From assembly GCA_963805975.1 (NCBI GenBank), contig CAWDVR010000001.1:704001-768000 (forward strand): a stretch of 64,000 nucleotides of DNA, given 5' to 3'. Positions 9,608 to 20,804 of the stretch are shown here, piece by piece. Source of the DNA: an uncultured Acidobacteriota bacterium (GTDB lineage: Bacteria; Acidobacteriota; Thermoanaerobaculia; Multivoradales; SZUA-115). Both the position numbers and the translations under genes were made by a program. Under the pieces are notes generated by a model. The model saw nothing but the letters and a program-made list of their open reading frames with translations. It had not been told where the DNA came from and made no database searches. Position 1 is the stretch's first letter, and every line of letters starts with the position of its first letter.

Positions 9608-10432
9608 ATGTCGCCCGCGGACGCGATTCACATCCGCTCCTTCTCCTCCGACGCCGACTACGAGGACTGCCTGGCCTTGCAGATGGCGGTGTGGGGGGAG
9701 GACATGCGCGAGTGCGTCCCGCCCCGCATCCAGAAGATCAGCCAGCAGGTGGGGAGCGTCGCTGCCGGCGCCTTCGACGGGCAGCGGCTGGTCGGTTTCG
9801 TCTGGGGCCTGACCGGCGTGCGCAGCGGCCGGTTGGCGCACTGGTCCCACATGCTGGGCGTCCTCCCCGAGGCGCGCGACGGCAATCTCGGCCGCCGGCT
9901 GAAGCTCTTCCAACGGCGGGAGCTGCTCGCGATCGGGGTCGAAGCCGTGTACTGGACCTTCGATCCTCTCGAGAGCCGCAACGCTCATCTGAACTTCAAC
10001 CGGCTCGGCGTCGAGGTGGAGAAGTACGTGCAGGACTACTACGGCAGCGGTGCCACCAGCCACCTGCACAGCGGCCTCGGCACCGATCGCTTCATCGTCG
10101 CCTGGCACCTCGAGAGCGGGAAGACCACCCGCGCCCTGGCGGACGAGCTGCCCGGCGACATCGCTGGCTACGAGCGGGCGCCGGTCGCCAACAGCCTCCT
10201 CTCCGACGACGGCCGCCCGATGCCGGTCGAGTGCGATCCGCCCTCTGTACCGATGCTGCGGATCGAGGTGCCGGTCCACATTCAGGACGTGAAAGCGGCC
10301 GATCCCGAGGCCGGTGCCGCCTGGCGGCGCTCGACCCGCCGCGCCTTCGAGGCTTCTCTCGCCCGGGGCCTGAAGATCGAGGCGTTCTATCGTTCGCCGG
10401 TTTCCGGCCGCAGCTTCTACGTCGCATGCTGA
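9608..10432 (+). CDS. GNAT-family acyltransferase (probable D-amino acid N-succinyltransferase)
   Basis: WSHMLGVLP, LGRRLKLFQR, WTFDPLESRNAHLNF, TDRFIVAW; typical of GNATs adjacent to NSAR/OSBS genes. Confidence 0.8.
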   Translation: MSPADAIHIRSFSSDADYEDCLALQMAVWGEDMRECVPPRIQKISQQVGSVAAGAFDGQRLVGFVWGLTGVRSGRLAHWSHMLGVLPEARDGNLGRRLKLFQRRELLAIGVEAVYWTFDPLESRNAHLNFNRLGVEVEKYVQDYYGSGATSHLHSGLGTDRFIVAWHLESGKTTRALADELPGDIAGYERAPVANSLLSDDGRPMPVECDPPSVPMLRIEVPVHIQDVKAADPEAGAAWRRSTRRAFEASLARGLKIEAFYRSPVSGRSFYVAC

Positions 10433-11556
10433 CCCTCGAGACCCTCACCCTGACCGAGATCGGGCTGCCGCTGAAGGAGCCCTTCCGCATCTCTTCGGGC
10501 ACGGTCCGCAACCGCCGCATCCTGCTCGTCGAGGCGCGGGAGAAGGACGGCACCCTGGGCTGGGGCGAATGCGTGGCGGGGGAGGAGCCCTACTTCAGCG
10601 CCGAAACCATCGACACCGCGTGGTTCGCGATCGAGACCTGGCTCGCGCCGCTGGTTCTCGGGCAGAGCTTCGCGCACCCACGCGAGATCTTCCCGCGGCT
10701 CGACGCCGTGGTCCGCGGTCATCTGATGGCCAAGGCGGCGGTCGAGATGGCGGCCTGGGAGCTCGCCTCGACCCTCGCGGGTCAGCCTCTCGCACAGTAC
10801 CTGGGCGGCGAGCGCCGCGAGGTCGAGGTCGGCATCTCGCTCGGCATCCAGGAGAACCCCGGCCGTCTGATCGAAAAGGCGCGGCAGGCGCAGGACGAGG
10901 GCTACCGCAAGATCAAGATCAAGATCGCGCCGGGAGCCGACGTCGAGTACGTCGCCGCGGTGCGCGCGGCACTGGGACCAGCGGCGCCGCTGATGGCGGA
11001 CGCCAACTCCGCCTACTCACCGGCCGACGCCCTCCACCTGGAGCGCCTGGACGCGCTCGATCTGATGATGATCGAGCAGCCGCTCGACCGTACAGACCTG
11101 CTGCGCCACGCGGCCCTCCAGCGCCGGCTCACGACGCCGATCTGCCTCGACGAGTCGATCACCGGCCCGGACCGCGCCGCGGACATGATCGCGCTCTCTG
11201 CCGGCCGCATCGTCAACATCAAGCCCGGCCGGGTGGGCGGCTTCGCGCAGTCGCTCGCCATCCACGATCTCTGCCTGGCCGCCGGCATCCCGGTGTGGTG
11301 CGGCGGCATGCTGGAGAGCGGCGTCGGCCGCGCTCACAACGTGGCACTGGCCTCGCTCCCCGGCTTCTCCAAGCCCGGAGACCTCTCGCCCAGCAGCCGC
11401 TACTGGGAGCGCGACGTGGTGCATCCGGAGTGGACCATGGACGCCGGGCTGGTGCGCGTGCCGCGCGAACGGCCGGGCATGGGCGTCGACGTGGACCGCG
11501 GACGGATCTCCGCGCTCACCGTGCGCCGCTCCGAGCTCTCCGCGGCCACGCGATAG
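10426..11556 (+). CDS. menC: o-Succinylbenzoate synthase / N-succinylamino acid racemase (enolase superfamily)
   Basis: KIKIKI (KxK), MADANSAY, IEQPL, ICLDESI, NIKPGRVGG, WCGGMLESGVG, PGDLSPSSRYWERD. Confidence 0.9.
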   Translation: MLTLETLTLTEIGLPLKEPFRISSGTVRNRRILLVEAREKDGTLGWGECVAGEEPYFSAETIDTAWFAIETWLAPLVLGQSFAHPREIFPRLDAVVRGHLMAKAAVEMAAWELASTLAGQPLAQYLGGERREVEVGISLGIQENPGRLIEKARQAQDEGYRKIKIKIAPGADVEYVAAVRAALGPAAPLMADANSAYSPADALHLERLDALDLMMIEQPLDRTDLLRHAALQRRLTTPICLDESITGPDRAADMIALSAGRIVNIKPGRVGGFAQSLAIHDLCLAAGIPVWCGGMLESGVGRAHNVALASLPGFSKPGDLSPSSRYWERDVVHPEWTMDAGLVRVPRERPGMGVDVDRGRISALTVRRSELSAATR

Positions 11557-11566
11557 GATCGCCGCC

Positions 11567-12364
11567 ATGGTACCCATCGATCTCTCCGGAAAGCGCGCCC
11601 TCGTCATGGGGGTCGCCAACAGCCGCAGCCTTGCCTGGGCGATCGCCGAGCGCCTGCGCGAAGCCGGTGCCGAGCTCGCCTTCACCTACCAGGGAGAGCG
11701 CCTGAAGGGGGAGCTCGAGAAGCTCACGGAGGGCCTTCCCGGCCGTCGGCTCTACTCCTGCGACGTCACCGTCGAGGCGGAGCTGGCGGCGGTCTTCGAG
11801 GACCTCCAGGCCGCCTGGGGCACACTCGACTACGTGGTGCACGCCATCGCCTTCGCGCCGCGCGCCGCCATGGAGGGCCGCTACATCGACACCACGCGCG
11901 ACGATTGGGTGACGGCGCTCGAGATCTCCGCCTACTCGCTCCTCGCCGTGGCGCGCAAGGCCGAGCCGCTGCTCAACGAAGGCGGAGGCCTGATCACGCT
12001 CTCCTACTACGCCGCCGAGAAGGTAGTGCCCAAGTACAACGTGATGGGGGTAGCCAAGAGCGCGCTCGAGGCCACGGTGCGCTACCTGGCCTACGACCTG
12101 GGGTCGAAGGGCGTGCGGATCAACGCCGTCTCTGCCGGGCCGGTGCGCACGGTGGCCGCGCGCAGCATCCCCGGCTTCATCCAGATGTACAAGAAGGTTG
12201 GCGGCGCCTCGCCCCTGGGCCGAAACGTCACTCACGAGGAGGTGGGCAACCTCGGGCTCTACCTGCTGTCGCCCCTCGCCTCGGGCATCACCGGCGAGAC
12301 GGTCTACGTGGACGGCGGCTTCCACGTGATGGGCATGCAATTGGAAGACAGCTCCTCTCCGTGA
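11567..12364 (+). CDS. fabI: Enoyl-ACP reductase
   Basis: GVANSRSLAW, HAIAFAP, ISAYSL, YNVMGVAKSALE, SAGPVRT, YVDGG. Confidence 0.95.
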   Translation: MVPIDLSGKRALVMGVANSRSLAWAIAERLREAGAELAFTYQGERLKGELEKLTEGLPGRRLYSCDVTVEAELAAVFEDLQAAWGTLDYVVHAIAFAPRAAMEGRYIDTTRDDWVTALEISAYSLLAVARKAEPLLNEGGGLITLSYYAAEKVVPKYNVMGVAKSALEATVRYLAYDLGSKGVRINAVSAGPVRTVAARSIPGFIQMYKKVGGASPLGRNVTHEEVGNLGLYLLSPLASGITGETVYVDGGFHVMGMQLEDSSSP

Positions 12365-13587
12365 GCCTCCCGGCCGCCCTCCAGCGGCTCTTCTCTCCTG
12401 AGCTCGAGGCGCGGCTGGTGGCGCTGCGACGGGACCTCCATCGGCATCCAGAGCTTTCCTGGCAGGAGGAGCGGACCGCCGCCCGCCTGGAGGGGGAGCT
12501 CGCCGCGACCGGCGCCACCCAAGTGCGACGAGTGGCCGGCACCGGGCTCGTGGCCCGGATCGCCGGCCACGACCCGCAGGCACCGGTGGTGGCGATCCGC
12601 GGTGACATCGATGCCCTGCCCGTGGAGGAGGCGACCGGCCTGCCTTTCTCCTCCGAGCGCCCCGGCGTGATGCACGCCTGCGGGCACGACGTGCACGCCG
12701 CCTGGGCCGTGGGCGCCGCCGCGCTACTGGCCGGTTCACCGGCCGCGGGCGACGTCCTGGTCCTGCTGCAGCCGGCGGAGGAGGTGGCGGGCGGGGCGCT
12801 CGCCCTGCTCGAATCGGGCGTCCTCGAAGGCGTCGCCACCCTCTTCGGCGCGCACGTGGACCGTCGCTTCGAGGTCGGCCAGGTGGTGGCCCAGGCCGGT
12901 CCGCTGGCCGCGGCCAGCGACCTCTTCGAGATCTCGCTCCGCGGCCGTGGTGCTCACGGCGCCCGGCCGCACGAGGCGGTGGACCCGGTGGTGGGCGCAG
13001 CGGCCCTGATCCAGGCCCTGCAGACGATCATCTCGCGACGCCTCGCACCCGGCGAGCCCGGCGTGGTCACGGTCGGCTCGATCCATGGCGGGCAGGCGGC
13101 CAACGTGATCCCCGAATCCGTCACCCTGACGGGCACACTGCGCGCCACCCGTGCCGCCACGCGCGAGCTGCTGCGCGGGGAGATCTCGCGCATGGCGGGG
13201 GAGACGGCGCGGCTCTACGGGCTCGCGTCCACGGTGCGTTTCTTCGACTCGACGCCGGCGCTCGTCAACCCGGAGCGGGAAGCCGCCTGGGCGCGCGCGG
13301 CGGTGACCCGGGTGCTGGGCCCCGAGGCCCTCGTCCCCCTGGGTGCGCTCAACATGGCGGGGGAGGACTTCGCCTACTACCTCGAGCGCCTGCCGGGCTG
13401 TTTTCTGCGCGTCGGCGCCAGGGAAGCGGGTGGAGAGCCCATCCCCGCCCATTCGCCGCGCTTCTATGCCGCCGAGGAGAGCGTGCTGGTGGGCGCCGCG
13501 GTACTGGCGGAAGCGGCTCGAACGGCATCTCTGGCCTTGACAGCAGCGGCGGGGAAGGTCTACTCTCCAACGTCAAATGCTGGTTGA
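12361..13587 (+). CDS. M20D amidohydrolase (probable N-succinyl-L-amino acid desuccinylase)
   Basis: HRHPELS, RGDIDALP, MHACGHD, QPAEE, GAHGARP, GEDFAYY, HSPRF; GTG start overlaps the fabI stop. Confidence 0.9.
   Translation: MSLPAALQRLFSPELEARLVALRRDLHRHPELSWQEERTAARLEGELAATGATQVRRVAGTGLVARIAGHDPQAPVVAIRGDIDALPVEEATGLPFSSERPGVMHACGHDVHAAWAVGAAALLAGSPAAGDVLVLLQPAEEVAGGALALLESGVLEGVATLFGAHVDRRFEVGQVVAQAGPLAAASDLFEISLRGRGAHGARPHEAVDPVVGAAALIQALQTIISRRLAPGEPGVVTVGSIHGGQAANVIPESVTLTGTLRATRAATRELLRGEISRMAGETARLYGLASTVRFFDSTPALVNPEREAAWARAAVTRVLGPEALVPLGALNMAGEDFAYYLERLPGCFLRVGAREAGGEPIPAHSPRFYAAEESVLVGAAVLAEAARTASLALTAAAGKVYSPTSNAG
13537..13566 (+). promoter_or_regulatory. Sigma70-type promoter for TPR/secreted pair 1, embedded in the 3' end of the M20 gene
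   Basis: TTGACA (13537-13542), 18 nt, TACTCT (13561-13566), 10 nt before ATG 13577. Confidence 0.55.
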
Positions 13588-14551
13588 TCTGTCCTTCGCC
13601 TTCCGTCCACCCACGGCTCTCGCCTCGGAGGACCCCGCAGCCGTTCTTCCAGGAGACGAATTCGAGTCCTTGCAGGCGCGCGGGCAGGCGGCTTTCGACG
13701 CGGGACGCCTGCCCGAGTCGATCGAGCTCCTCGAGCGGGCGCTCGCCTGGGCCGAGGAGCACGGCGACCGCCGGCAGATCGATCTCGGCTTCTGCAACCT
13801 GACCAGCGCCCAGATCGCCCGCGACGAAAAGCGCCCCCTCGCGCCCGCGACCATGCAGCGGCTGCGCGCGGTGCTCCTCGCGAGCGAGGATCTGACCAAC
13901 TGCCGCCTCGCCGCCTACAACCTCGCTCGCGCCTTCGAGTTCATGAGCGACAGCAAGAAGGGCCTGTTCTACGCCCGCATCGCCCTCGATCGCGCGGAGC
14001 TCCTGGGCCGCGCCGACTGGATCGCGTCGAGCCACAACCAGATCGGCAACTTCCTGCTCGCCGACAGCTACTTCGACCAGGCCGCGGCCGAGTACGACGA
14101 GGCCCTGAGCCTCTATCCGCCGGAGGCCGCGCTGCGCCGCGCCCTGGTGGAGGGCAACCTCGGCTACTGCTCGATCGCGCGTGGCCGGGTGCAGCAGGGG
14201 CTCGAGCTGCTGGTTCGCAGCTTCCGGGTCCTGGCGCGGCGCGGCAGTATGACCGACCTTGCCGTGGCGCACGCCGACCTCTGCTACGCGCACCTCGAGC
14301 TCGGTCGCAGCCGCGACGCCGTCCGCCACGGCAACAAGGCGCTGGCGCTCGCCGAGCAGTGCGGCGCCAAGGACGTGGCGAAGAATTGCCTCTACCTGCT
14401 GGGCGCCGCCACCCAGCAGGGCGGCGACCGGCAGGGCGCCCACGACTGCTACTCGCAGCTCCAGGAGCGCTACTACCCGGGCTCGGCCTTCGTCGCCGAG
14501 TTCCTGCTCTCGGTCGACGTCCGCCGCATGATCAATCTGAGGGCCGCATGA
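13577..14551 (+). CDS. Cytoplasmic TPR protein (RRNPP/Rap-like), copy 1
   Basis: No signal peptide; helical repeats AAYNLARAF, SHNQIGNFL, EGNLGYC, KNCLYLLG; full-length paralog of 18047..18946. Confidence 0.8.
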   Translation: MLVDLSFAFRPPTALASEDPAAVLPGDEFESLQARGQAAFDAGRLPESIELLERALAWAEEHGDRRQIDLGFCNLTSAQIARDEKRPLAPATMQRLRAVLLASEDLTNCRLAAYNLARAFEFMSDSKKGLFYARIALDRAELLGRADWIASSHNQIGNFLLADSYFDQAAAEYDEALSLYPPEAALRRALVEGNLGYCSIARGRVQQGLELLVRSFRVLARRGSMTDLAVAHADLCYAHLELGRSRDAVRHGNKALALAEQCGAKDVAKNCLYLLGAATQQGGDRQGAHDCYSQLQERYYPGSAFVAEFLLSVDVRRMINLRAA

Positions 14552-15930
14552 GAACCCTGCTGCGGCCCCTCGTGCTGGTCCTGGCCCTGCTCGTTGCGGG
14601 TACCCCTGCTGCGGCCGAACCGCGCCAGACCGCCCTCGGTACGAACGGCGAGATCTATCGCCTGTTGACCGGGACCTATGGCCAGTTCTTCGGCGCCGGC
14701 CTCACTCCGGCCACCAACCCTGTGTTGGTGCTCGAGATCGTGCGACCGGGCGACCGCCACCCGGACCGCATGCTGGTGCCGGGCACCGAATCCGAAGACG
14801 TCGAGCGCGCCTCTTCGGTGAGCTTCGAGGAGCGCTCGGGGGCCGCCGTGGTCCTCTGGGCGAGCCAGAAGAACTACATTCGGTCGCGCATCAACCTGGC
14901 GACCTTCGACGGGGAGACCTGGTCGGCGCCTATCGAGCTCTCCGGCGACGTCTGGAGCCAGAAGTCCTCGCCGGCTCTCGCGGTGAGCAGCGACACCTAC
15001 CTGACCCGCACCGAGACCGGCACCGCCGCCCACGAGCGCAGGATCTACAACGTGGTGTGGTGGGAGCAGTCCGGTGCCGGGGATCGCGTCGTCTACTCGC
15101 CCGTGGTCTTCGTCGACGGTGCCTACATCGGCTGGAACCCGGTCTTCGTCCTCACCGACCTGACGGACGGCGACCCCTCGTTCGGGGCGCCGCTCCTGGT
15201 GCGCGACGAGCTGCTGCGCGTTCCCACCATCGCCAGCGGCGAGCGTCCGTCGGACTCCGTGGCCGCCTTCGTGCACCCGGCTACCAAGCAGTTGATCAGC
15301 GTCCAGATCAGCTCGCTCGCCGGGGAGATGACCATCCTCGCCGACCAGGTACGAGCCGATCTCACGAGCTTCGGCCAGGCGAACCCCACTGCGGACCTGG
15401 CGGCGCTGGGGGAGCGAGCCCGGCATCAGATCGTTGACTTCGGCGTCCGTCTCGGCATGCACCCCGGTCTGCTCAGCTTCGTGGGTGGGCGGGTCGCCTC
15501 CGGCCTAGCCCAGAACCCGGCGGAGACCTCTCTCGCCTCCCTGGGCGAGAAGGCGCGCCACCAGATCGTCGACTTCGGGGTACGGATGATGGCCCAGGGC
15601 CTCACCGGCGCCGAGGACCTCACGCCCGCCTGGCTGGCGGAGTTCGGCTCGGAACAGTACCCGGCGACCGACGACGGCCAGCCTCTCCACGCGTTGCGGG
15701 TACGCTTGATCGCCGCCCGTCCGGCGCCCCGCACCGAGTCTGGCACCACCTCAGTCTTCCTCTCCGAGAACGGCGAAGACGCCCTGATCGCCTGGCAGGC
15801 CGATGACATGGTCCGCTACTGCGAAGAGTCCAACGGCGAATGGAGCGAGATCCGGCAGCTCCAGCTCAACGCCGACCTCTCCTTGGCCCACGCCTTCGAG
15901 CTGCTGTCGGCGCGGGTTCGGAAGAACTGA
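14548..15930 (+). CDS. Secreted 460-aa hypothetical protein with duplicated peptide ARHQIVDFGVR, copy 1
   Basis: ATGA overlap with the TPR stop; Sec signal MRTLLRPLVLVLALLVAGTPAAA; paralog of 16658..18040. Confidence 0.85.
   Translation: MRTLLRPLVLVLALLVAGTPAAAEPRQTALGTNGEIYRLLTGTYGQFFGAGLTPATNPVLVLEIVRPGDRHPDRMLVPGTESEDVERASSVSFEERSGAAVVLWASQKNYIRSRINLATFDGETWSAPIELSGDVWSQKSSPALAVSSDTYLTRTETGTAAHERRIYNVVWWEQSGAGDRVVYSPVVFVDGAYIGWNPVFVLTDLTDGDPSFGAPLLVRDELLRVPTIASGERPSDSVAAFVHPATKQLISVQISSLAGEMTILADQVRADLTSFGQANPTADLAALGERARHQIVDFGVRLGMHPGLLSFVGGRVASGLAQNPAETSLASLGEKARHQIVDFGVRMMAQGLTGAEDLTPAWLAEFGSEQYPATDDGQPLHALRVRLIAARPAPRTESGTTSVFLSENGEDALIAWQADDMVRYCEESNGEWSEIRQLQLNADLSLAHAFELLSARVRKN
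15397..15585 (+). repeat. In-frame duplicated peptide LAxLGE(R/K)ARHQIVDFGVR, period 135 nt
   Basis: Copies start at 15397 and 15532; 11-aa core identical, 7 of 11 codons differ synonymously. Confidence 0.95.
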
Positions 15931-16029
15931 CGGCACATTAGTCGTTGGTGCCAGACGAAGTCGCCCGGCTTCGAGCGGCAAGACTCTGTTCGTGAATGTG
16001 CGAGCGCTGGCTAGAAAGCATAGGGCAGC

Positions 16030-16610
16030 ATGCCCGAGCACTCGCAGACAGAGTTGAGGGTCTTCAGAGAGTTCGCTCGGTGGGCTCCACTCCAGATCGA
16101 CCAAGACTCCATCCAGAAGAGACAGCCTCCAGAGCCCGATATTCTCTGTAGATCCTCCGAAGGTCAGGAGTTCGCATTCGAGCTGGTGGAGGTCGTTGAT
16201 CCCGATCTAGCTACCGCTGATTCCCGTCAGGTGAGACTTCAAGTTGCGTTGAGCGGGGGCCGGTAGGACGCTGCGTTTAGGCGACAGTACGGCGACGCCG
16301 TTGTCGGAATCACCTTTCAGCGCGAGCTCTCAATGCAGAAACTTTATACTTCAACGTAGCTGCTGTTGAAGCCTTTGCGGATCCCACTCTGAAGACGATC
16401 CGAAGCAAGCTAACTCGTACGTACTCGGTGACGGGGAGTCTCGCCCTGCTGGCCTACTTCAGTGGCCAGCCCATGCATGCCGGAACCGAATGGGGGCTCG
16501 GGCTTGAGGAGCAGATCCGCGATCTTCTTCGCCCCTCGACATTCGATGCGGTCTGGCTGTTCGAGATGAGTTCTGGACGTCTTGTCGAAATCCAGCACTA
16601 TGCTGGGTAA
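16030..16610 (+). pseudogene. Decayed gene with a PD-(D/E)xK-like motif, between the two convergent pairs
   Basis: Fragments 16030..16266 (PEPDILC...AFELVE) and 16428..16610 separated by stops and a frameshift; visibly more AT-rich than the flanks. Confidence 0.5.
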
Positions 16611-16657
16611 GGCCAAGTTGGCCCAGCAGTAGCAGCGATCTGAGAGCGTCCCCGCGC

Positions 16658-18040
16658 CTACCGCTCACGCACCCGCTGCCGCAGGATCTGCTCTGCTCTC
16701 GCAGCGTCGATGGGGCCTTCGAGGGCGATGCGGCGGGCGGCGGTCCAGCCGGCGTCGCGCGACTCGCGGTAGCGCAGGGCTCCGGTCTCGCTCCAGCTCA
16801 CCACGGCACGCCGTCCGTCCTCTGCCAGAAAGATCCAGATCGGGCCGGCGCCGACGCCGGGGGCGCGGCGCTCGTTGACCAGTCGCAGCCAAACGTGGTG
16901 CGGCCTTCCCTCGACCCCACCCACGGCCGGGGCGCGGATCTCGAGGACGCGGCTCACCGTGGCGGCGTCGCCTCCGGCCAGGCCGCCCTCGCCGAACACC
17001 CGCGCGCCGATCTCGATCATATGGCCGCGTGCGTGCTCGGCCAGCGAGACGACGCTGCCCGTTTCCAGCCCGGTGTCGCGGATGTCGGCTGCTACGTCGT
17101 CGGCCAGGAAGGTCAGGAGGCCCGGGTGCAGGCGGTGACCGATCTCGATCATGTGGCCGCGCGCGTGCTCGGCGAGGCTCACCAGCCCGTCGGCCGAGAA
17201 CAAGTCCTCGTCCGCCTCGATGCGCGCCGCCGTGCCATCGGCCAGCTCGCCCAGCTCGGCCGGCAGTACCCTTGCGTCGAACACCAGAAAGCGCTCGGTC
17301 GCCTTGTTGACGAAGCCCAGGACGACGCTGTTCTCGTCCCGGCCGGACTCCATCCTCGGCGAGCGGAACAGATCGGCCGGCAGCATCATGTGCTGCTGGG
17401 GCACCGCGCTGGCATCGAGGTCGCTCAGGTTGTAGACCTCGTTACGGCCGAGATAGGCGCCGTCGATCAGGAAGATCGGCGTGTAGAAGACCTCTTCGGA
17501 AGAGGCCGCCTTCTCCCACCAGGCCACGTGCAGCACGGTGCGGCTGTGGAGTACGGACGGCTGGCCCGCGGCACCCACCACCTCGAAGTCGTCGCGGGTG
17601 ATCGAGACCTGGGGCGGACCCTTGAGGGGAGCGATGTCGCCGGAGACCTCGAAGACCTGCGACCAGACGCCGCCCTTGAGCCAGGCCAGATTCACCCGCG
17701 AGTGCTGGGGCTGCGGCTTGCTCTCCCAGAACACGAAGAGGCTGTTCGAGGCGTCCTCGAAGACCAGGGCGGGCTGGCCCTCGATCGCCGCGCCGTCGGT
17801 CTCCGGCACCTTCAGGCGGCGTAGCGGCTCGCCGGGGGGCTGCACGTCGATGGCGATCAGGGGGTGGTTGGAGCTCGCCGCGGCGCAATCGGAGAAGAGA
17901 TCGCGGCAGCGGCCGCTCTTGGCCACGTAGATCTCACCGCCCAGGCCGAGCGCGGCGTCGCGGGGCACCTCGGCTACCAGGGCCGGAGAGCCGAGAGCCG
18001 CCAGGGCGGCGAGGGAGAGCAGGATGCGTGCGTGCGACAT
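16658..18040 (-). CDS. Secreted 460-aa hypothetical protein with duplicated peptide VSLAEHARGHMIEIG, copy 2
   Basis: Sec signal MSHARILLSLAALAALGSPALVA; shares ALG.GEIY, VP.T, SR.NLA, E.SGD, V.WWE, Y.P...DGAY.G.N.V and HPGLL with copy 1. Confidence 0.85.
   Translation of the reverse strand: MSHARILLSLAALAALGSPALVAEVPRDAALGLGGEIYVAKSGRCRDLFSDCAAASSNHPLIAIDVQPPGEPLRRLKVPETDGAAIEGQPALVFEDASNSLFVFWESKPQPQHSRVNLAWLKGGVWSQVFEVSGDIAPLKGPPQVSITRDDFEVVGAAGQPSVLHSRTVLHVAWWEKAASSEEVFYTPIFLIDGAYLGRNEVYNLSDLDASAVPQQHMMLPADLFRSPRMESGRDENSVVLGFVNKATERFLVFDARVLPAELGELADGTAARIEADEDLFSADGLVSLAEHARGHMIEIGHRLHPGLLTFLADDVAADIRDTGLETGSVVSLAEHARGHMIEIGARVFGEGGLAGGDAATVSRVLEIRAPAVGGVEGRPHHVWLRLVNERRAPGVGAGPIWIFLAEDGRRAVVSWSETGALRYRESRDAGWTAARRIALEGPIDAARAEQILRQRVRER
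17006..17182 (-). repeat. In-frame duplicated peptide VSLAEHARGHMIEIG, period 132 nt
   Basis: Copies at 17138-17182 and 17006-17050; 15 aa identical with synonymous differences, including Ser AGC versus TCG. Confidence 0.95.
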
Positions 18041-18046
18041 GGTGTC

Positions 18047-18946
18047 TCAGGCCTTGATGTTGATCAGTCGCTTGACGTTCAGGAGGAGCAGGAGATCGGC
18101 CACGCCCTCGGCGCCGGGGTAGAACTCCTCCTGCAGGCGGGCGAACTGAGCGCGCGCCGCGAGCGGGTCGCCGGCGAGCTTGAAAGCCTCGCCCAGGAGG
18201 AAGAGGGAGTTCTTGCGCATCTCGGGGTTGTCGATCTCCTCGGACATGCGCAGGGCGGCGATCGCGTGCCGGATGGCGCTGCGATAGCGGTTGATCTCGA
18301 GATAGGCGAAGCAGAGGCTGACCTCGACCACCGGCCTCCAGGCCACGGCGCCCGCCCGGCGGATCAGCCGTAGGGCATCGAAATGGGCCTCGAAGCCCTG
18401 CCGGTAGCGGCCCTGCACCACGTGGCAGTAGCCGAGGTTGTCGAGCGCCAGGGCGCGGCGCAAGGGGTTCTCGTCGGGCAGGGCTGCGATCGCCTGCTCG
18501 AACTCCTTGCGCGCGTCGTCGAACTTGCTGCTCGCCAGGAGCAGGTTCCCGAGCAGGTTGTGAGTCGAGGACAGCCAGTCCGCTCGCTCGGCCTCGCGGG
18601 CGTAGCGGTGGGCGATGCGGGTGTAGAAGAGCGCCTTGGCGCCGTCCTTGGCCACCTCGTAGGCGCGGCCCAGCGTATAGGCGGCGAGGAAGCTGCTCTC
18701 GGGGTCGGAGTTCTTGACCAGGATGCGCCGCAGGTCGGCCTTGACGCTCTCGGTCTCGCCGGTCTCCACCAGATAGGCCGCACGGTTGCACAGCGTGCGG
18801 TCGACCTGCCAGTTCTCGCCGTGCTCGCCGAGCCAGGTGAGGGCGCCATCGAGGATCGCGAGCGCCTGCTGGAGCTGTCCGGCGAGCGCCGCGCTCCACG
18901 CCTCCTGCTTGTAATGCTCGTAGGCTTCGCTGGCGCCGGCGGTCAT
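18047..18946 (-). CDS. Cytoplasmic TPR protein (RRNPP/Rap-like), copy 2
   Basis: AAYTLGRAY, LFYTRIA, THNLLGNLL, DNLGYC, KNSLFLLG, LQEEFYPG; no signal peptide; ends 6 nt before the secreted gene. Confidence 0.8.
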   Translation of the reverse strand: MTAGASEAYEHYKQEAWSAALAGQLQQALAILDGALTWLGEHGENWQVDRTLCNRAAYLVETGETESVKADLRRILVKNSDPESSFLAAYTLGRAYEVAKDGAKALFYTRIAHRYAREAERADWLSSTHNLLGNLLLASSKFDDARKEFEQAIAALPDENPLRRALALDNLGYCHVVQGRYRQGFEAHFDALRLIRRAGAVAWRPVVEVSLCFAYLEINRYRSAIRHAIAALRMSEEIDNPEMRKNSLFLLGEAFKLAGDPLAARAQFARLQEEFYPGAEGVADLLLLLNVKRLINIKA

Positions 18947-19356
18947 GGGCGAGCTCGAACCTCCGGCATCCGGTGAACCGGTGGAGCGGGCTCGGCGGGC
19001 CGCGGCCCGACGGCAACGGGGGCCGAGGGCCGGCGGCGGGTGATCAGGTGCTGGATCTCGTCCTGGTCCTCGGCCGGCAGGGCGTTGAACTGCTGCAGCA
19101 TCAGCACTTCGCGCGGGCTGACCGCGCCGCCGCGGTCCTCTTCGAAGAACTCCGCGACACTGACCTTGAACTCGGCCAGCATGCGGAACAGGGTGTCGAG
19201 GCTGACGCGGTATTCGCCGCGCTCGATGCGGGAGAGGTCGGACTGCTGGATGCCGATGCGGGCGGCGAGGTCGTTCTGCGTGAGCTTACGCTCCTTGCGC
19301 AGCCGACGAATCTTCCGCCCGACCAGCTCCACCTGCTGAGTTCGCTGTGCCACCAT
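18943..19356 (-). CDS. XRE-family HTH transcriptional regulator
   Basis: GRKIRRLRKERKLTQNDLAARIGIQQSDLSRIERG; stop overlaps the TPR copy 2 start (ATGA). Confidence 0.9.
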   Translation of the reverse strand: MVAQRTQQVELVGRKIRRLRKERKLTQNDLAARIGIQQSDLSRIERGEYRVSLDTLFRMLAEFKVSVAEFFEEDRGGAVSPREVLMLQQFNALPAEDQDEIQHLITRRRPSAPVAVGPRPAEPAPPVHRMPEVRARP

Positions 19357-19404
19357 CAGATCGTGGCCTCCGGGAAAGAATGACCCTCGAGGGGTGAACG
19401 CGGC

Positions 19405-19434
19405 GATGCTACAGTAGCATCCAGAACGCGTCAA
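19405..19434 (-). promoter_or_regulatory. Sigma70 promoter of the XRE-TPR-secreted operon with an overlapping palindrome (putative operator)
   Basis: Minus strand TTGACG (19434-19429), 17 nt, TAGCAT (19411-19406); perfect inverted repeat GATGCTAC-A-GTAGCATC at 19405-19421. Confidence 0.7.
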
Positions 19435-19469
19435 GGCCCAAAACCTCTGTGCTACCATTTCGACGCCCG

Positions 19470-20804
19470 ATGAGCGCGCCGGTCTCGCCCAAGATCTTCG
19501 TTCTCGACACCTCGGTCATCCTCTACGACTTCCAGAGCATCCACAGCTTCGAGGAGCACGACGTGGCGGTGCCGATCACCGTCATCGAGGAGCTCGACCA
19601 GTTCAAGAAGGGCGGCAACGTCATCAACCTGCACGCCCGCGAGTTCGTGCGCGAGCTCGACCGCCAGTCGGCCCACCACGATCTGCGCGGCTGGGTGCCG
19701 ATCAACGGCGCGACACGGGGGCGGTTTCGGGTCATCACCGACGAGGGCTCCCGGGTCGACGCCGTGGCGGCCTTCGGCAACCGCAAGAACGACCACCGCA
19801 TCCTGAACGCCGCCCTGGCGCTCGCCGAGCAGGAGAGCGATCGCCGGGTGATCCTGGTGAGCAAGGACATCAACCTGCGGGTGAAGGCCCGGGCCTTAGG
19901 GCTAGAGGCCGAGGACTACGAGACGGTCAAGATCGAGGATCTCGAGCGCCTCTATACCGGCAAGAGCGAGGTGGAGGTGGCGGACGGCGGGCTGATCGAC
20001 CGCCTCTACTCGGAGGGCGCCGTGCCGGCCGAGGAGCTCGGCCTGCCCGAGGCGCCGCCCGCCCACCACTACTTCATCCTGCGGAGCGCGACGCGCTCCG
20101 CCCTCGCCTGCTTCAACCCGCGGACCCAGGCGCTCGAGCGGGTGGTGAAGACCCCGGCCTACGGCGTCCAGCCGCGCAACGCCGAGCAGACCTTCGCGCT
20201 GCACGCGGTGCTCAACCCGGCGGTGCCGCTGGTGAGCCTCTCCGGGCCGGCGGGCACAGGCAAGACGCTCCTCGCCCTGGCCGGCGCCCTGGAGCAGCGG
20301 CGCTCGTTCCGCCAGATCCTCCTGGCACGGCCCATCGTGCCGCTGTCGAACAAGGACATCGGCTACCTGCCGGGAGACATCAACTCGAAGATCAGCCCCT
20401 ACATGCAACCGGTGTGGGACAGCCTGGGCGTGATCAAGGACCAGTTCGGCGAGCGGCAGAAGGAGGCCAAGCGGATCGACGAGATGAGCGAGCTCGGCAA
20501 GCTCCAGGTGGTGCCGCTCGCCTACATCCGCGGCCGGAGCTTCTCGAACATCATCTTCGTGGTCGACGAGGCGCAGAACCTCACGCCGCACGAGGTGAAG
20601 ACCATCATCACCCGCGCCGGCGAAGGCACCAAGATCGTCTTCACCGGCGACATTTTTCAGATCGACACCCCGTATCTCGACGCCCACAGCAACGGCCTTT
20701 CGTACCTCATCGACCGCATCCGCGACAGCCCGCTCTACGCGCACGTGAACCTGGACAAGGGCGAGCGCTCGGAGCTCGCCAACCTGGCGAGCCGGCTGCT
20801 GTAA
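19470..20804 (+). CDS. phoH: PIN + PhoH ATPase (PhoH2/YlaK type)
   Basis: FVLDTSV, VIEELD, NDHRIL, SKDINLRVKA (PIN); GPAGTGKT, GYLPG, YIRGRSF, DEAQNLT, GDIFQID. Confidence 0.92.
   Translation: MSAPVSPKIFVLDTSVILYDFQSIHSFEEHDVAVPITVIEELDQFKKGGNVINLHAREFVRELDRQSAHHDLRGWVPINGATRGRFRVITDEGSRVDAVAAFGNRKNDHRILNAALALAEQESDRRVILVSKDINLRVKARALGLEAEDYETVKIEDLERLYTGKSEVEVADGGLIDRLYSEGAVPAEELGLPEAPPAHHYFILRSATRSALACFNPRTQALERVVKTPAYGVQPRNAEQTFALHAVLNPAVPLVSLSGPAGTGKTLLALAGALEQRRSFRQILLARPIVPLSNKDIGYLPGDINSKISPYMQPVWDSLGVIKDQFGERQKEAKRIDEMSELGKLQVVPLAYIRGRSFSNIIFVVDEAQNLTPHEVKTIITRAGEGTKIVFTGDIFQIDTPYLDAHSNGLSYLIDRIRDSPLYAHVNLDKGERSELANLASRLL

What the first reader, a model, noticed from the sequence alone, without database searches (positions are those of the whole stretch)
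13537..19434. Candidate undescribed peptide-signalling system: two paralogous TPR + secreted-protein pairs and an XRE regulator
Seen: two convergent, tightly coupled pairs (13577-14551 with 14548-15930; 18946-18047 with 18040-16658). The TPR proteins are paralogs with no signal peptide and share Asn-containing motifs (HN..GN, NLGY, KN.L.LLG). The partners are paralogous 460-aa proteins with Sec signals, each holding a different duplicated peptide. An XRE-HTH gene overlaps the start of TPR copy 2. Established: RRNPP systems (Rap-Phr, PlcR-PapR, NprR-NprX, AimR-AimP) pair a cytoplasmic TPR receptor with a downstream exported propeptide; the re-imported fragment binds through groove Asn residues and controls an HTH in cis or in trans. 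They are described mainly in Firmicutes and their phages and use tiny precursors. Inference: an analogous circuit in a probable diderm, with HTH and TPR split and the signal embedded in a large secreted carrier, present in two specificities. Alternative: the TPR is a cognate pre-export chaperone binding that motif.
Basis: partly seen in the sequence, partly recalled or inferred. Interest (0 to 1): 0.9.

Follow-up and report, generated by a model that had tools for sequence, protein, structure and literature searches.

The report
Signal peptides hidden in secreted protein
A class of Gram-negative-type soil and sediment bacteria keeps a three-gene unit (repressor, cytoplasmic sensor, large exported protein) in which short repeated peptides inside the exported protein change in step with the sensor's predicted binding groove, so the peptides likely act as a released signal of a kind described so far only in Gram-positive bacteria.

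Summary
Observation confirmed and extended. The XRE–TPR–secreted-protein order is conserved across class Thermoanaerobaculia (Acidobacteriota): secreted protein in 189 of 201 genomes; 73 of 78 XRE-anchored loci continue into the TPR. The secreted protein is a predicted β-propeller with a four-helix insert carrying 2–4 identical octapeptides (R-x-x-Φ-Φ-x-Φ-G), which differ between proteins (81 kinds in 111). Other orders lack the insert and keep one copy, usually with proline. Peptide positions co-change with residues on the TPR's groove-side helices: peptide Asp6 goes with TPR Arg86 in 46 of 51, versus 2 of 60 otherwise, and this held in 28 of 28 new pairs. The two window pairs follow opposite codes. 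A palindromic operator overlaps the XRE promoter and precedes surface-glycan and exported-protein genes. Pair 1's likely XRE lies on another contig. Best reading: the TPR reads a peptide freed from the exported protein and controls the XRE, as in Rap–Phr–Rco. Release route (export and re-import versus unexported precursor) is untested, and no complex model was obtained. Not an RRNPP member (precursor 460 aa, not 10–100). Not found in print; this scan noted a different XRE-TPR/small-peptide family in this class, not this one.

The parts
13577..14551 (+). TPR1: cytoplasmic all-TPR protein (324 aa), predicted receptor for RHQIVDFG; carries Leu/Arg at the positions equal to TPR2 50/86 (L70, R110), the Asp6 code
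14548..15930 (+). Secreted protein 1 (460 aa): Sec-type signal, predicted beta-propeller with four-helix insert (by homology to the model of protein 2)
15421..15444 (+). Octapeptide RHQIVDFG, copy in helix slot 2
   Evidence: the two copies differ at 4 of 8 codons, all synonymous
15556..15579 (+). Octapeptide RHQIVDFG, copy in helix slot 4
15931..16657 (.). Spacer between the convergent pairs; 58% GC, holds a broken gene remnant; not part of the system
   Evidence: a relative's RNA contig diverges right after 15930
16658..18040 (-). Secreted protein 2 (460 aa): Sec-type signal, predicted beta-propeller with four-helix insert at residues 261-350
   Evidence: (pLDDT 94)
17138..17161 (-). Octapeptide RGHMIEIG, copy in helix slot 2 (residues 294-301)
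17006..17029 (-). Octapeptide RGHMIEIG, copy in helix slot 4 (residues 338-345)
18047..18946 (-). TPR2: cytoplasmic all-TPR protein (299 aa, seven helix pairs plus conserved C-terminal tail), predicted receptor for RGHMIEIG; R50/F86/E61, the Glu6 and His3 code
   Evidence: (pLDDT 94.5)
18943..19356 (-). XRE-family HTH regulator (137 aa), first gene of operon 2; near-invariant recognition region QQSDLSR[MI]E[KR]GEY
19406..19420 (.). Palindromic operator ATGCTA-CAG-TAGCAT (consensus ATGYYA-N3-TRRCAT), overlapping the -10 box; predicted XRE site
   Evidence: 70 of 76 XRE upstream regions hold it with at most 1 mismatch
19406..19434 (-). Sigma-70-type promoter TTGACG-17-TAGCAT for the XRE-TPR2-secreted 2 operon
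   Evidence: the only promoter-like site in 13300-19600 (0.3 expected)

Best explanation
This is a conserved three-gene unit whose cytoplasmic TPR protein likely binds a short cognate peptide that would be cut out of the large exported partner and re-imported, and that likely switches the XRE repressor controlling surface-glycan and exported-protein genes. Shown: gene order, Sec-type signal on the partner only, repeated protein-specific octapeptide, residue-level co-variation between peptide and TPR, and a conserved palindrome over the XRE promoter. Inferred, step by step: (1) TPR binds the peptide in extended form in its groove, about 0.9; (2) TPR acts on the XRE as an anti-repressor in the manner of Rap(pLS20) on Rco, about 0.75; (3) because the motif is folded into the carrier, it must be freed by unfolding or proteolysis, and the most likely route is export, cleavage near the Arg and after the Gly, and uptake by an Opp/Dpp-type transporter, about 0.6; (4) by analogy only, peptide binding would switch the anti-repressor off and restore repression. 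Whether the peptide travels between cells or only reports the cell's own periplasm is open, roughly even odds. The genome holds two such circuits: window XRE with pair 2, and the contig C5 XRE with pair 1.
For: Order conserved: TPR directly upstream of the secreted gene in 30 of 30 loci; 73 of 78 XRE-anchored loci continue into TPR and 70 into the secreted gene, 3 more are cut by contig ends; 20 of 20 short-form loci. Motif behaves as a linear ligand: it fills different subsets of four helix slots; copies are identical within a protein in 146 of 197 comparisons versus 508 of 28,006 between proteins; identity falls from 0.93 at Gly8 to 0.22 one residue later; codons differ silently at 0.30 (0.39 if independent). 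Position 7 is hydrophobic only in active copies (mean hydropathy 3.5 versus -1.0 in degenerate slots). Other orders lack the helical insert and keep one copy at the homologous place, with Pro at position 5 in 63 of 75. Co-change on the TPR tree: position 3 with R94/E61 (z 5.4, 4.7), 7 with L32/Y9 (5.8, 4.6), 6 with F86 (4.2); 0, 0 and 1 of 156 control columns reach these; 13 of 16 top sites lie in A helices versus 40% of columns. Asp6-Arg86 held in 8 of 8 and 20 of 20 new pairs, 46 of 51 versus 2 of 60 overall, and 12 concordant, 0 reversed, 4 tied of 16 independent pairs. N170 is 99% and N130 93% conserved in 218 TPRs. Rap phi105 with peptide is the best prokaryotic fold match (Z 23.5, rmsd 4.0, 271 aligned). 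Operator in 70 of 76 upstream regions; 7 genome sites over 17 bits versus 1 in the reversed genome. Family-5 peptide-binding proteins in 81 of 81 genomes.
Against: No processing protease or transporter is linked to the loci. Family-5 binding proteins are also in genomes without the system, so they do not discriminate. In the model the repeats are helices of a well-packed bundle, so release needs real unfolding or cleavage. The co-change test in the short-form set was mostly flat: only position 7 with C53 beat all 131 controls. His3-Glu61 is looser (7 concordant, 1 reversed, 9 tied of 17); positions 2 and 5 did not beat controls. XRE-TPR co-change is only suggestive (8 of 48 XRE columns over z 4 versus 3 of 40 controls, few events each). 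APPBP2 and Cut9 outrank Rap in the fold search, and LGN, AfsR outrank NprR by sequence. The exact operator pattern was not found in 5 of 5 genomes of other orders, nor in 2 of 10 of the same order. One family (f4) and some single genomes lack the genes.
Confidence: 0.55

Rival explanations
1. Export monitor: the TPR binds the same motif on the unfolded precursor in the cytoplasm when Sec export stalls, and so tells the XRE how well export is working; nothing is re-imported.
For: All co-variation evidence fits equally. The motif is readable only when the carrier is unfolded, which a Sec precursor is. The three genes are translationally coupled. Most predicted targets are exported or envelope proteins. 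No protease or transporter is linked. Usually one or two chromosomal copies per genome, none found in phage or plasmid collections. Multiple copies could give avidity.
Against: A cell-internal sensor gives little reason for 81 different peptides in 111 proteins with matching receptor changes. Identity ends sharply at Gly8 and the motif opens with Arg or Arg/Lys runs, as for an excised peptide. Duplicated pairs always carry different peptides (24 of 24), though that is expected by chance at a 1.8% match rate.
Confidence: 0.25
2. Dedicated chaperone: the TPR holds its own partner unfolded before export through the motif; the XRE merely autoregulates the operon and is not controlled by the TPR.
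For: Fits the cognate co-variation and tight coupling. Some operons lack an adjacent XRE (167 of 218 TPRs have one within 1 kb upstream, flanks partly cut), including pair 1.
Against: The XRE stays first in the operon across the class and in 9 of 10 fetched loci from other classes. When pair 1 moved, its XRE ortholog was kept with its operator in three genomes. TPR surface residues away from the peptide-varying sites are conserved (Y108, P277, L286, N296, L297) and the strongest XRE co-changes map to TPR 241-299. A chaperone does not need 2-4 identical sites in shifting slots.
Confidence: 0.1
3. Secreted antagonist with immunity: the excised peptide is a weapon or kin marker taken up by neighbours, and the TPR is the cognate immunity protein.
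For: High peptide diversity with matched partner change; multi-copy cores resemble multi-core RiPP precursors (recalled).
Against: No modifying enzymes or exporters co-occur; near-universal, low-copy, syntenic presence in the class suits a core regulator, not a weapon; fixed XRE with a wider regulon.
Confidence: 0.05
4. Structural repeats: the octapeptides are just the repeated helices of a bundle kept alike by gene conversion, and the TPR is unrelated to them.
For: The repeats are helices in a confident model; silent differences between copies are somewhat below independence (0.30 versus 0.39), which suggests some conversion.
Against: Degenerate slots build the same bundle without the motif; short forms keep the motif without the bundle; the TPR code predicts peptide residues out of sample.
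Confidence: 0.03

Closest known systems
Rap(pLS20)-Phr*pLS20-Rco(pLS20) of Bacillus subtilis plasmid pLS20 (RRNPP anti-repressor circuit; PMC7641744, abstract and outline read)
   Same: TPR receptor without its own HTH, separate repressor with operators, peptide from an exported neighbour; a Rap(pLS20) structure is among the fold matches (6t3h, Z 18.8).
   Different: Here the precursor is a 300-460 aa folded protein, the host a diderm, the unit chromosomal and class-wide; the TPR lacks evidence of a Rap three-helix bundle; no sequence-level Rap match.
Rap-Phr with tandemly duplicated pheromones (phi105 and phi3T; PMC11343458, passages read)
   Same: One to four identical or near-identical copies of the ligand per precursor, internal copies allowed, conserved Asn anchoring the backbone; Rap phi105 is the top prokaryotic fold match (Z 23.5).
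   Different: Those copies lie in a short propeptide; here they are helices of a bundle inserted into a beta-propeller, and the slots in use vary between lineages.
NprR-NprX, PlcR-PapR, ComR-ComS, AimR-AimP
   Same: TPR groove with Asn, hepta/octapeptide ligand, XRE-type HTH output, predicted control of exported proteins; fold matches Z 20.5, 18.0 and 17.2 for NprR, PlcR, AimR; NprR is the last of 35 sequence hits (E 9e-6).
   Different: HTH fused to the receptor there, separate here; small precursors; Bacillota only in the papers read (PMC9765709, PMC12700828, passages).
Secretion-coupled partner switching (ExsE-ExsC-ExsD-ExsA, FlgM-FliA) and Sec monitors (SecM); recalled, no call
   Same: An exported protein reports export status to a transcription factor; the model for rival 1.
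   Different: No TPR receptor reading a variable repeated peptide; different secretion systems.
Fused XRE-TPR receptors with small DPxG or Cys-loop repeat peptides in Thermoanaerobaculia
   Same: Same class, same general logic of TPR plus exported repeat peptide.
   Different: Those are fused HTH-TPR proteins in dozens of copies with tiny precursors; this family is split, low-copy and uses a propeller carrier. My TPR profile found no close fused relative in the own genome or the class sample.

Membership tests
RRNPP(A) systems | Propeptide is a small protein of 10-100 aa (criterion 1, PMC10075063) | tested here: not met
   Partner is 460 aa in the window, about 300-370 aa in short forms, and folds as a propeller
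RRNPP(A) systems | Propeptide exported by Sec (criterion 2) | tested here: met
   156 of 163 pass a hydrophobic signal heuristic, 1 has a lipobox-like motif; SignalP itself not run
RRNPP(A) systems | Receptor 250-500 aa with TPRs, cytoplasmic (criteria 3, 4) | tested here: met
   299 and 324 aa, TPR_12 over cut-off, all-helical model, 0 of 39 with a signal-like N-terminus
RRNPP(A) systems | Receptor and propeptide genes adjacent (criterion 5) | tested here: met
RRNPP(A) systems | Receptor binds a cognate peptide through groove residues including a conserved Asn | tested here: inconclusive
   Strong indirect support (N170 99%, N130 93%; residue code); no binding data
RRNPP(A) systems | Mature peptide produced outside the cytoplasm and re-imported by Opp | not testable with these tools
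   Family-5 binding proteins present but their substrates are unknown
RRNPP(A) systems | Receptor descends from the Rap/Rgg/NprR/PlcR/PrgX/AimR clade | tested here: inconclusive
   Rap, NprR, PlcR, AimR are among fold hits but below APPBP2 and Cut9; no RRNPP NCBIfam model hits the TPRs; LGN and AfsR score higher by sequence
RRNPP(A) systems | Host in Bacillota or their mobile elements | tested here: not met
   Relatives are Thermoanaerobaculia, Acidobacteriota; LpxC present; no phage or plasmid match
Rap(pLS20)/Rco-type anti-repressor circuit | TPR protein binds a separate repressor and lifts it from its operator | tested here: inconclusive
   Operator over the -10 box and fixed linkage; weak co-change signal; no binding data
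Beta-propeller lectins and sialidases (PLL, BNR) | Family-specific sequence and active or sugar-binding sites | tested here: inconclusive
   Only generic propeller matches, Z up to 14.9 at 7-12% identity; no Pfam hit; sites not examined

The most novel reading that the evidence does not exclude
The exported beta-propeller is a sensor and propeptide in one: a folded envelope protein (perhaps glycan-binding) whose turnover frees a lineage-specific peptide that a cytoplasmic TPR reads to set surface-glycan and exoprotein genes. This would be a class-wide, vertically inherited peptide signalling system in diderm bacteria with a decodable receptor-ligand code, with signal gain tuned by copying the ligand into up to four helices.
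Probability: 0.35. Interest if true: 0.93.

Novelty: new variant of a known kind. Interest (0 to 1): 0.82.

Why it matters
Intracellular peptide-receptor signalling is described for Bacillota and their phages, and the standard detector demands a precursor of 10-100 aa, so a system like this is invisible to it. If confirmed, it extends the logic to a whole class of abundant soil and sediment diderms and adds a new way to make the signal: a ligand locked inside a folded exported protein. Over 100 natural receptor-peptide pairs with a visible residue code (Asp6-Arg86, Glu6-Arg50) make binding directly testable with two synthetic octapeptides and two soluble proteins, and give an outgroup candidate that the RRNPPA phylogeny paper (PMC12700828) says is lacking. 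If the export-monitor rival is right, it is a new Sec surveillance circuit, which is also of interest.

Tried and rejected
Locus searches with the carrier and TPR alignments had no conserved seed; the XRE alignment worked and only the best 80 of 246 relatives were kept, so that set leans to close XRE relatives. PDB sequence search with the carrier profile gave nothing meaningful; the Atlas gave unnamed and BNR_4 clusters at low recognition and generic TPR clusters. Search for longer, fused TPR forms returned only unrelated TPR-CHAT-type proteins (weak evidence). No match in phages (TPR2) or plasmids (carrier 2). Idea that the conserved TPR tail (D-V-R-x-x-I-N-L-[RK]-A) is a pseudo-ligand or degron: intra-TPR co-change was uninformative; left open. 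Paralog peptides always differ (24 of 24), rejected as evidence for selection because random pairs match only 1.8% of the time. RNA: one soil metatranscriptome holds contigs of a relative over all five genes (share of words 0.14), but DNA carry-over is not excluded, so not used as proof of expression. Operator pattern absent from 5 of 5 genomes of other orders: their XRE may use another site; not followed up. Literature searches found no description; RRNPP plus Acidobacteri gave 0 papers. The library lacks most subscription journals, and supplements were not read. Rows dropped: 14 of 97 training pairs and 14 of 42 new long pairs had no exact repeat and were left out of the co-variation counts; 4 of 79 short pairs were left out for doubtful motif alignment.


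Full report
Observation. TPR1 (324 aa) and TPR2 (299 aa) are 39% identical, the two 460-aa partners 32%, and neither has another close paralog in the genome. The TPRs hit TPR_12, the XRE hits HTH_3, and the partners hit nothing in Pfam or NCBIfam. Each partner holds its own exact duplicate, with cores RHQIVDFG and RGHMIEIG. A simple heuristic finds a signal peptide on 156 of 163 partners and on 0 of 39 TPRs. Relatives are named Thermoanaerobaculia, Acidobacteriota, and the genome has LpxC, so the host is a diderm.

Conservation. The partner was found in 38 of 41 relatives, 189 of 201 genomes of the class and weakly in 16 genomes of other classes in a 301-genome phylum sample; the TPR in 76 of 81. 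These tallies include up to three unpublished genomes (G044, G198, G202) that were not otherwise used. The family has 547 clusters at 50% identity. A TPR lies directly upstream in 30 of 30 partner loci, with an XRE before it in 25. Starting from the XRE alone, 73 of 78 loci continue into the TPR and 70 into the partner; 3 are cut by contig ends and 5 have no TPR next. The order also holds in 20 of 20 short-form loci, TPR then partner in 59 of 60 more, and in 9 of 10 loci fetched from other classes. One family of the order lacks it. No match was found in phage or plasmid collections.

The carrier. AlphaFold gives a confident model (pLDDT 94): strands throughout, about five blades by my reading of the secondary structure, with four helices inserted at residues 261-350. 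Fold searches return only generic beta-propellers such as Elp2, PLL lectins and sialidases (Z up to 14.9, 7-12% identity). The repeats sit in helices 2 and 4. In other orders the protein is about 300-370 aa, matches positions 1-256 and the C-terminal part, lacks the insert, and keeps one copy of the motif at the homologous place after a variable loop (RAHVPIG, RHIPIVG, RAHFPDIG).

The motif is a linear ligand, not a structural repeat. 141 of 163 carriers have an exact repeat of 8 or more residues, 0 of 163 shuffles do. In 97 TPR-carrier pairs 83 have an exact octamer repeat. The four helices are four slots, and the motif fills different subsets (1+2+4 in 43, 1+4 in 18, 2+4 in 13, others fewer). 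Within a protein, identity is 0.83-0.94 over positions 0-8 and 0.22 right after the Gly; between proteins the variable positions 2, 3, 6, 7 match at 0.26-0.36. Copies differ silently at 0.30 of codons against 0.39 for independent draws, so selection on the protein, with some conversion, keeps them alike. Degenerate slots keep the bundle-core residues but lose the hydrophobic position 7. Short forms have Pro at position 5 in 63 of 75, which does not suit a helix.

The TPR reads it. The TPR model is seven helix pairs with a tail. Mapping changes on the TPR tree, peptide position 3 changes with R94 and E61, position 6 with F86, position 7 with L32 and Y9; 0, 1 and 0 of 156 control columns from the rest of the carrier reach those scores, and 13 of 16 top sites lie in A helices against 40% of all columns. 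A helices line the groove in TPR proteins (own knowledge). The code is chemically sensible: Asp6 goes with Arg86, Glu6 mostly with an aromatic at 86 and Arg50 (24 of 37 Glu6, 11 of 51 Asp6). Tested on 28 new pairs, 8 of 8 Asp6 peptides had Arg86 and 20 of 20 others did not (14 pairs without an exact repeat dropped). Overall 46 of 51 versus 2 of 60, and 12 concordant, 0 reversed, 4 tied among 16 independent pairs, one being the ortholog of TPR1 itself. Among 79 short forms only the four with Asp6 have Arg86 (likely one event). In the window TPR1 has the Asp code and TPR2 the Glu code. Positions 3 and 6 map about 8-11 residues apart along the same helices, which fits an extended, antiparallel peptide (inference), and N170 and N130 are 99% and 93% conserved in 218 TPRs; an Asn anchors the peptide backbone in ComR and Rap (PMC5131891, PMC11343458, passages). 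Against: positions 2 and 5 did not beat controls, His3-Glu61 is loose (7, 1, 9 of 17), and the tree test in short forms was mostly flat. No complex model was obtained, so binding remains inferred.

The output. A palindrome ATGYYA-N3-TRRCAT lies upstream of 70 of 76 XREs; in the window it covers the -10 box of the only promoter-like site, which points to autorepression. The genome has 7 sites over 17 bits versus 1 in a reversed control; ten genomes of the order have 19 exact sites versus 3 control; five genomes of other orders have none. Sites precede the XREs, a wzm-like ABC-2 permease, a priming sugar transferase in two genomes, a subtilase and many exported proteins. The usual divergent neighbours are the ABC-2 permease and an FG-GAP protein (74 of 98 loci). 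TPR1 groups with TPRs of complete operons at that locus (97/94), and an XRE left alone there on contig C5 groups with their XREs (100/98); two more genomes keep such an orphan with its operator. So pair 1 likely moved and still works with the C5 XRE. XRE-TPR co-change is suggestive only: 8 of 48 XRE columns exceed z 4, six of them towards TPR 241-299, versus 3 of 40 controls and none there.

Mechanism. Most likely the carrier is exported, cut, and the peptide re-imported; the TPR then changes its hold on the XRE, as Phr does to Rap(pLS20) and Rco (PMC7641744, abstract). The sharp end at Gly, the leading Arg or basic runs, the 81 kinds in 111 proteins and copy numbers of up to four match pheromone precursors (PMC11343458). 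Family-5 peptide-binding proteins are in 81 of 81 genomes but prove nothing, and no protease or transporter is linked. The main rival is sensing of the unexported precursor, which fits the same co-variation. I give 0.55 to export and re-import, 0.25 to an export monitor, 0.10 to a plain chaperone, 0.05 to weapon and immunity, 0.03 to structure only.

Comparison and novelty. By the five criteria of PMC10075063 (passages) four are met and the precursor size is not; the host is not Bacillota; descent from RRNPP receptors is unresolved, since Rap phi105, NprR, PlcR and AimR are good fold matches but APPBP2 and Cut9 rank higher. It works like an RRNPP anti-repressor circuit but is not filed as a member. 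Seven literature searches found no description; the reviews and phylogenies read in passages (PMC9765709, PMC12700828, PMC13220807) place these systems in Gram-positive bacteria. This scan has notes on a different family in the same class, fused XRE-TPR receptors with tiny repeat peptides, but none on this family by sequence, place or words. Verdict: real, undescribed as far as searched, a new variant of intracellular peptide sensing; interest 0.82.

Noticed in passing
window 15931-16657: Lower-GC spacer (58%) with a broken gene: pieces at 16030-16266 and about 16340-16610 in different frames; the first has a PEPDILC...FELVE stretch that recalls PD-(D/E)XK nucleases (recalled; no Pfam hit at 1e-4).
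   Followed up: partly
window 9608-13587: Operon of an unannotated 274-aa gene, an enolase-superfamily (MR_MLE) gene, FabI-type reductase and an M20 peptidase; the first two plus M20 recall the N-succinylamino acid racemase pathway (recalled). It overlaps the TPR1 start, so pair 1 may be read through from it; no operator was found before TPR1.
   Followed up: partly
L191 (G000:C5:528000-540000): Ancestral locus: second XRE with operator, divergent from an ABC-2 permease (wzm-like), an FG-GAP exported protein and an exported protein with an ATLLLPYF motif and no Pfam family; an M23 peptidase and a zinc-finger anti-sigma-like gene lie on the other side. The FG-GAP gene recurs in 74 and the ATLLLPYF gene in 56 of 98 loci.
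   Followed up: yes
L193 (G000:C4:291069) and L177 (G002): Operator-like site before a priming sugar transferase (Bac_transf, WcaJ-like), divergent from a GT4 glycosyltransferase, in two genomes of the family.
   Followed up: partly
L194, L189, L192, L196, L190 (own genome): Further operator-like sites before an exported S8 subtilase with I9 domain and several exported proteins without Pfam family.
   Followed up: partly
TPR C-terminus, window 18047-18080 and 14520-14551: Conserved tail D-V-R-x-x-I-N-L-[RK]-A (N296 95%, L297 91% of 218); loosely resembles the ligand's hydrophobic pattern; role unknown.
   Followed up: partly
L240 (G041): A 422-aa carrier of intermediate length with a long-form type motif RAQIIEIG and a TPR with R50/F86, in a family outside the order; no XRE in the flank.
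   Followed up: no
L127, L128, L245, L247, L248, L252: In another class of the phylum the same operon carries an acidic motif of the type DEPVPIG after W-G-x-R, and the TPR tail reads ITLKR; in L127 the divergent gene is a sigma-70 family factor.
   Followed up: no
L013, L016, L009: Second-copy XREs with degenerate recognition helices, possibly non-binding or with a changed operator.
   Followed up: no
family f4 (G010, G021, G030, G039, G151): The one family of the order where neither carrier (0 of 5) nor TPR (0 of 3) was found, in 98-100% complete genomes: a natural loss to compare.
   Followed up: no
window 19470-20804: PIN plus PhoH-like ATPase gene divergent from the XRE, sharing the operator-bearing spacer; same neighbour in several genomes of the family.
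   Followed up: partly
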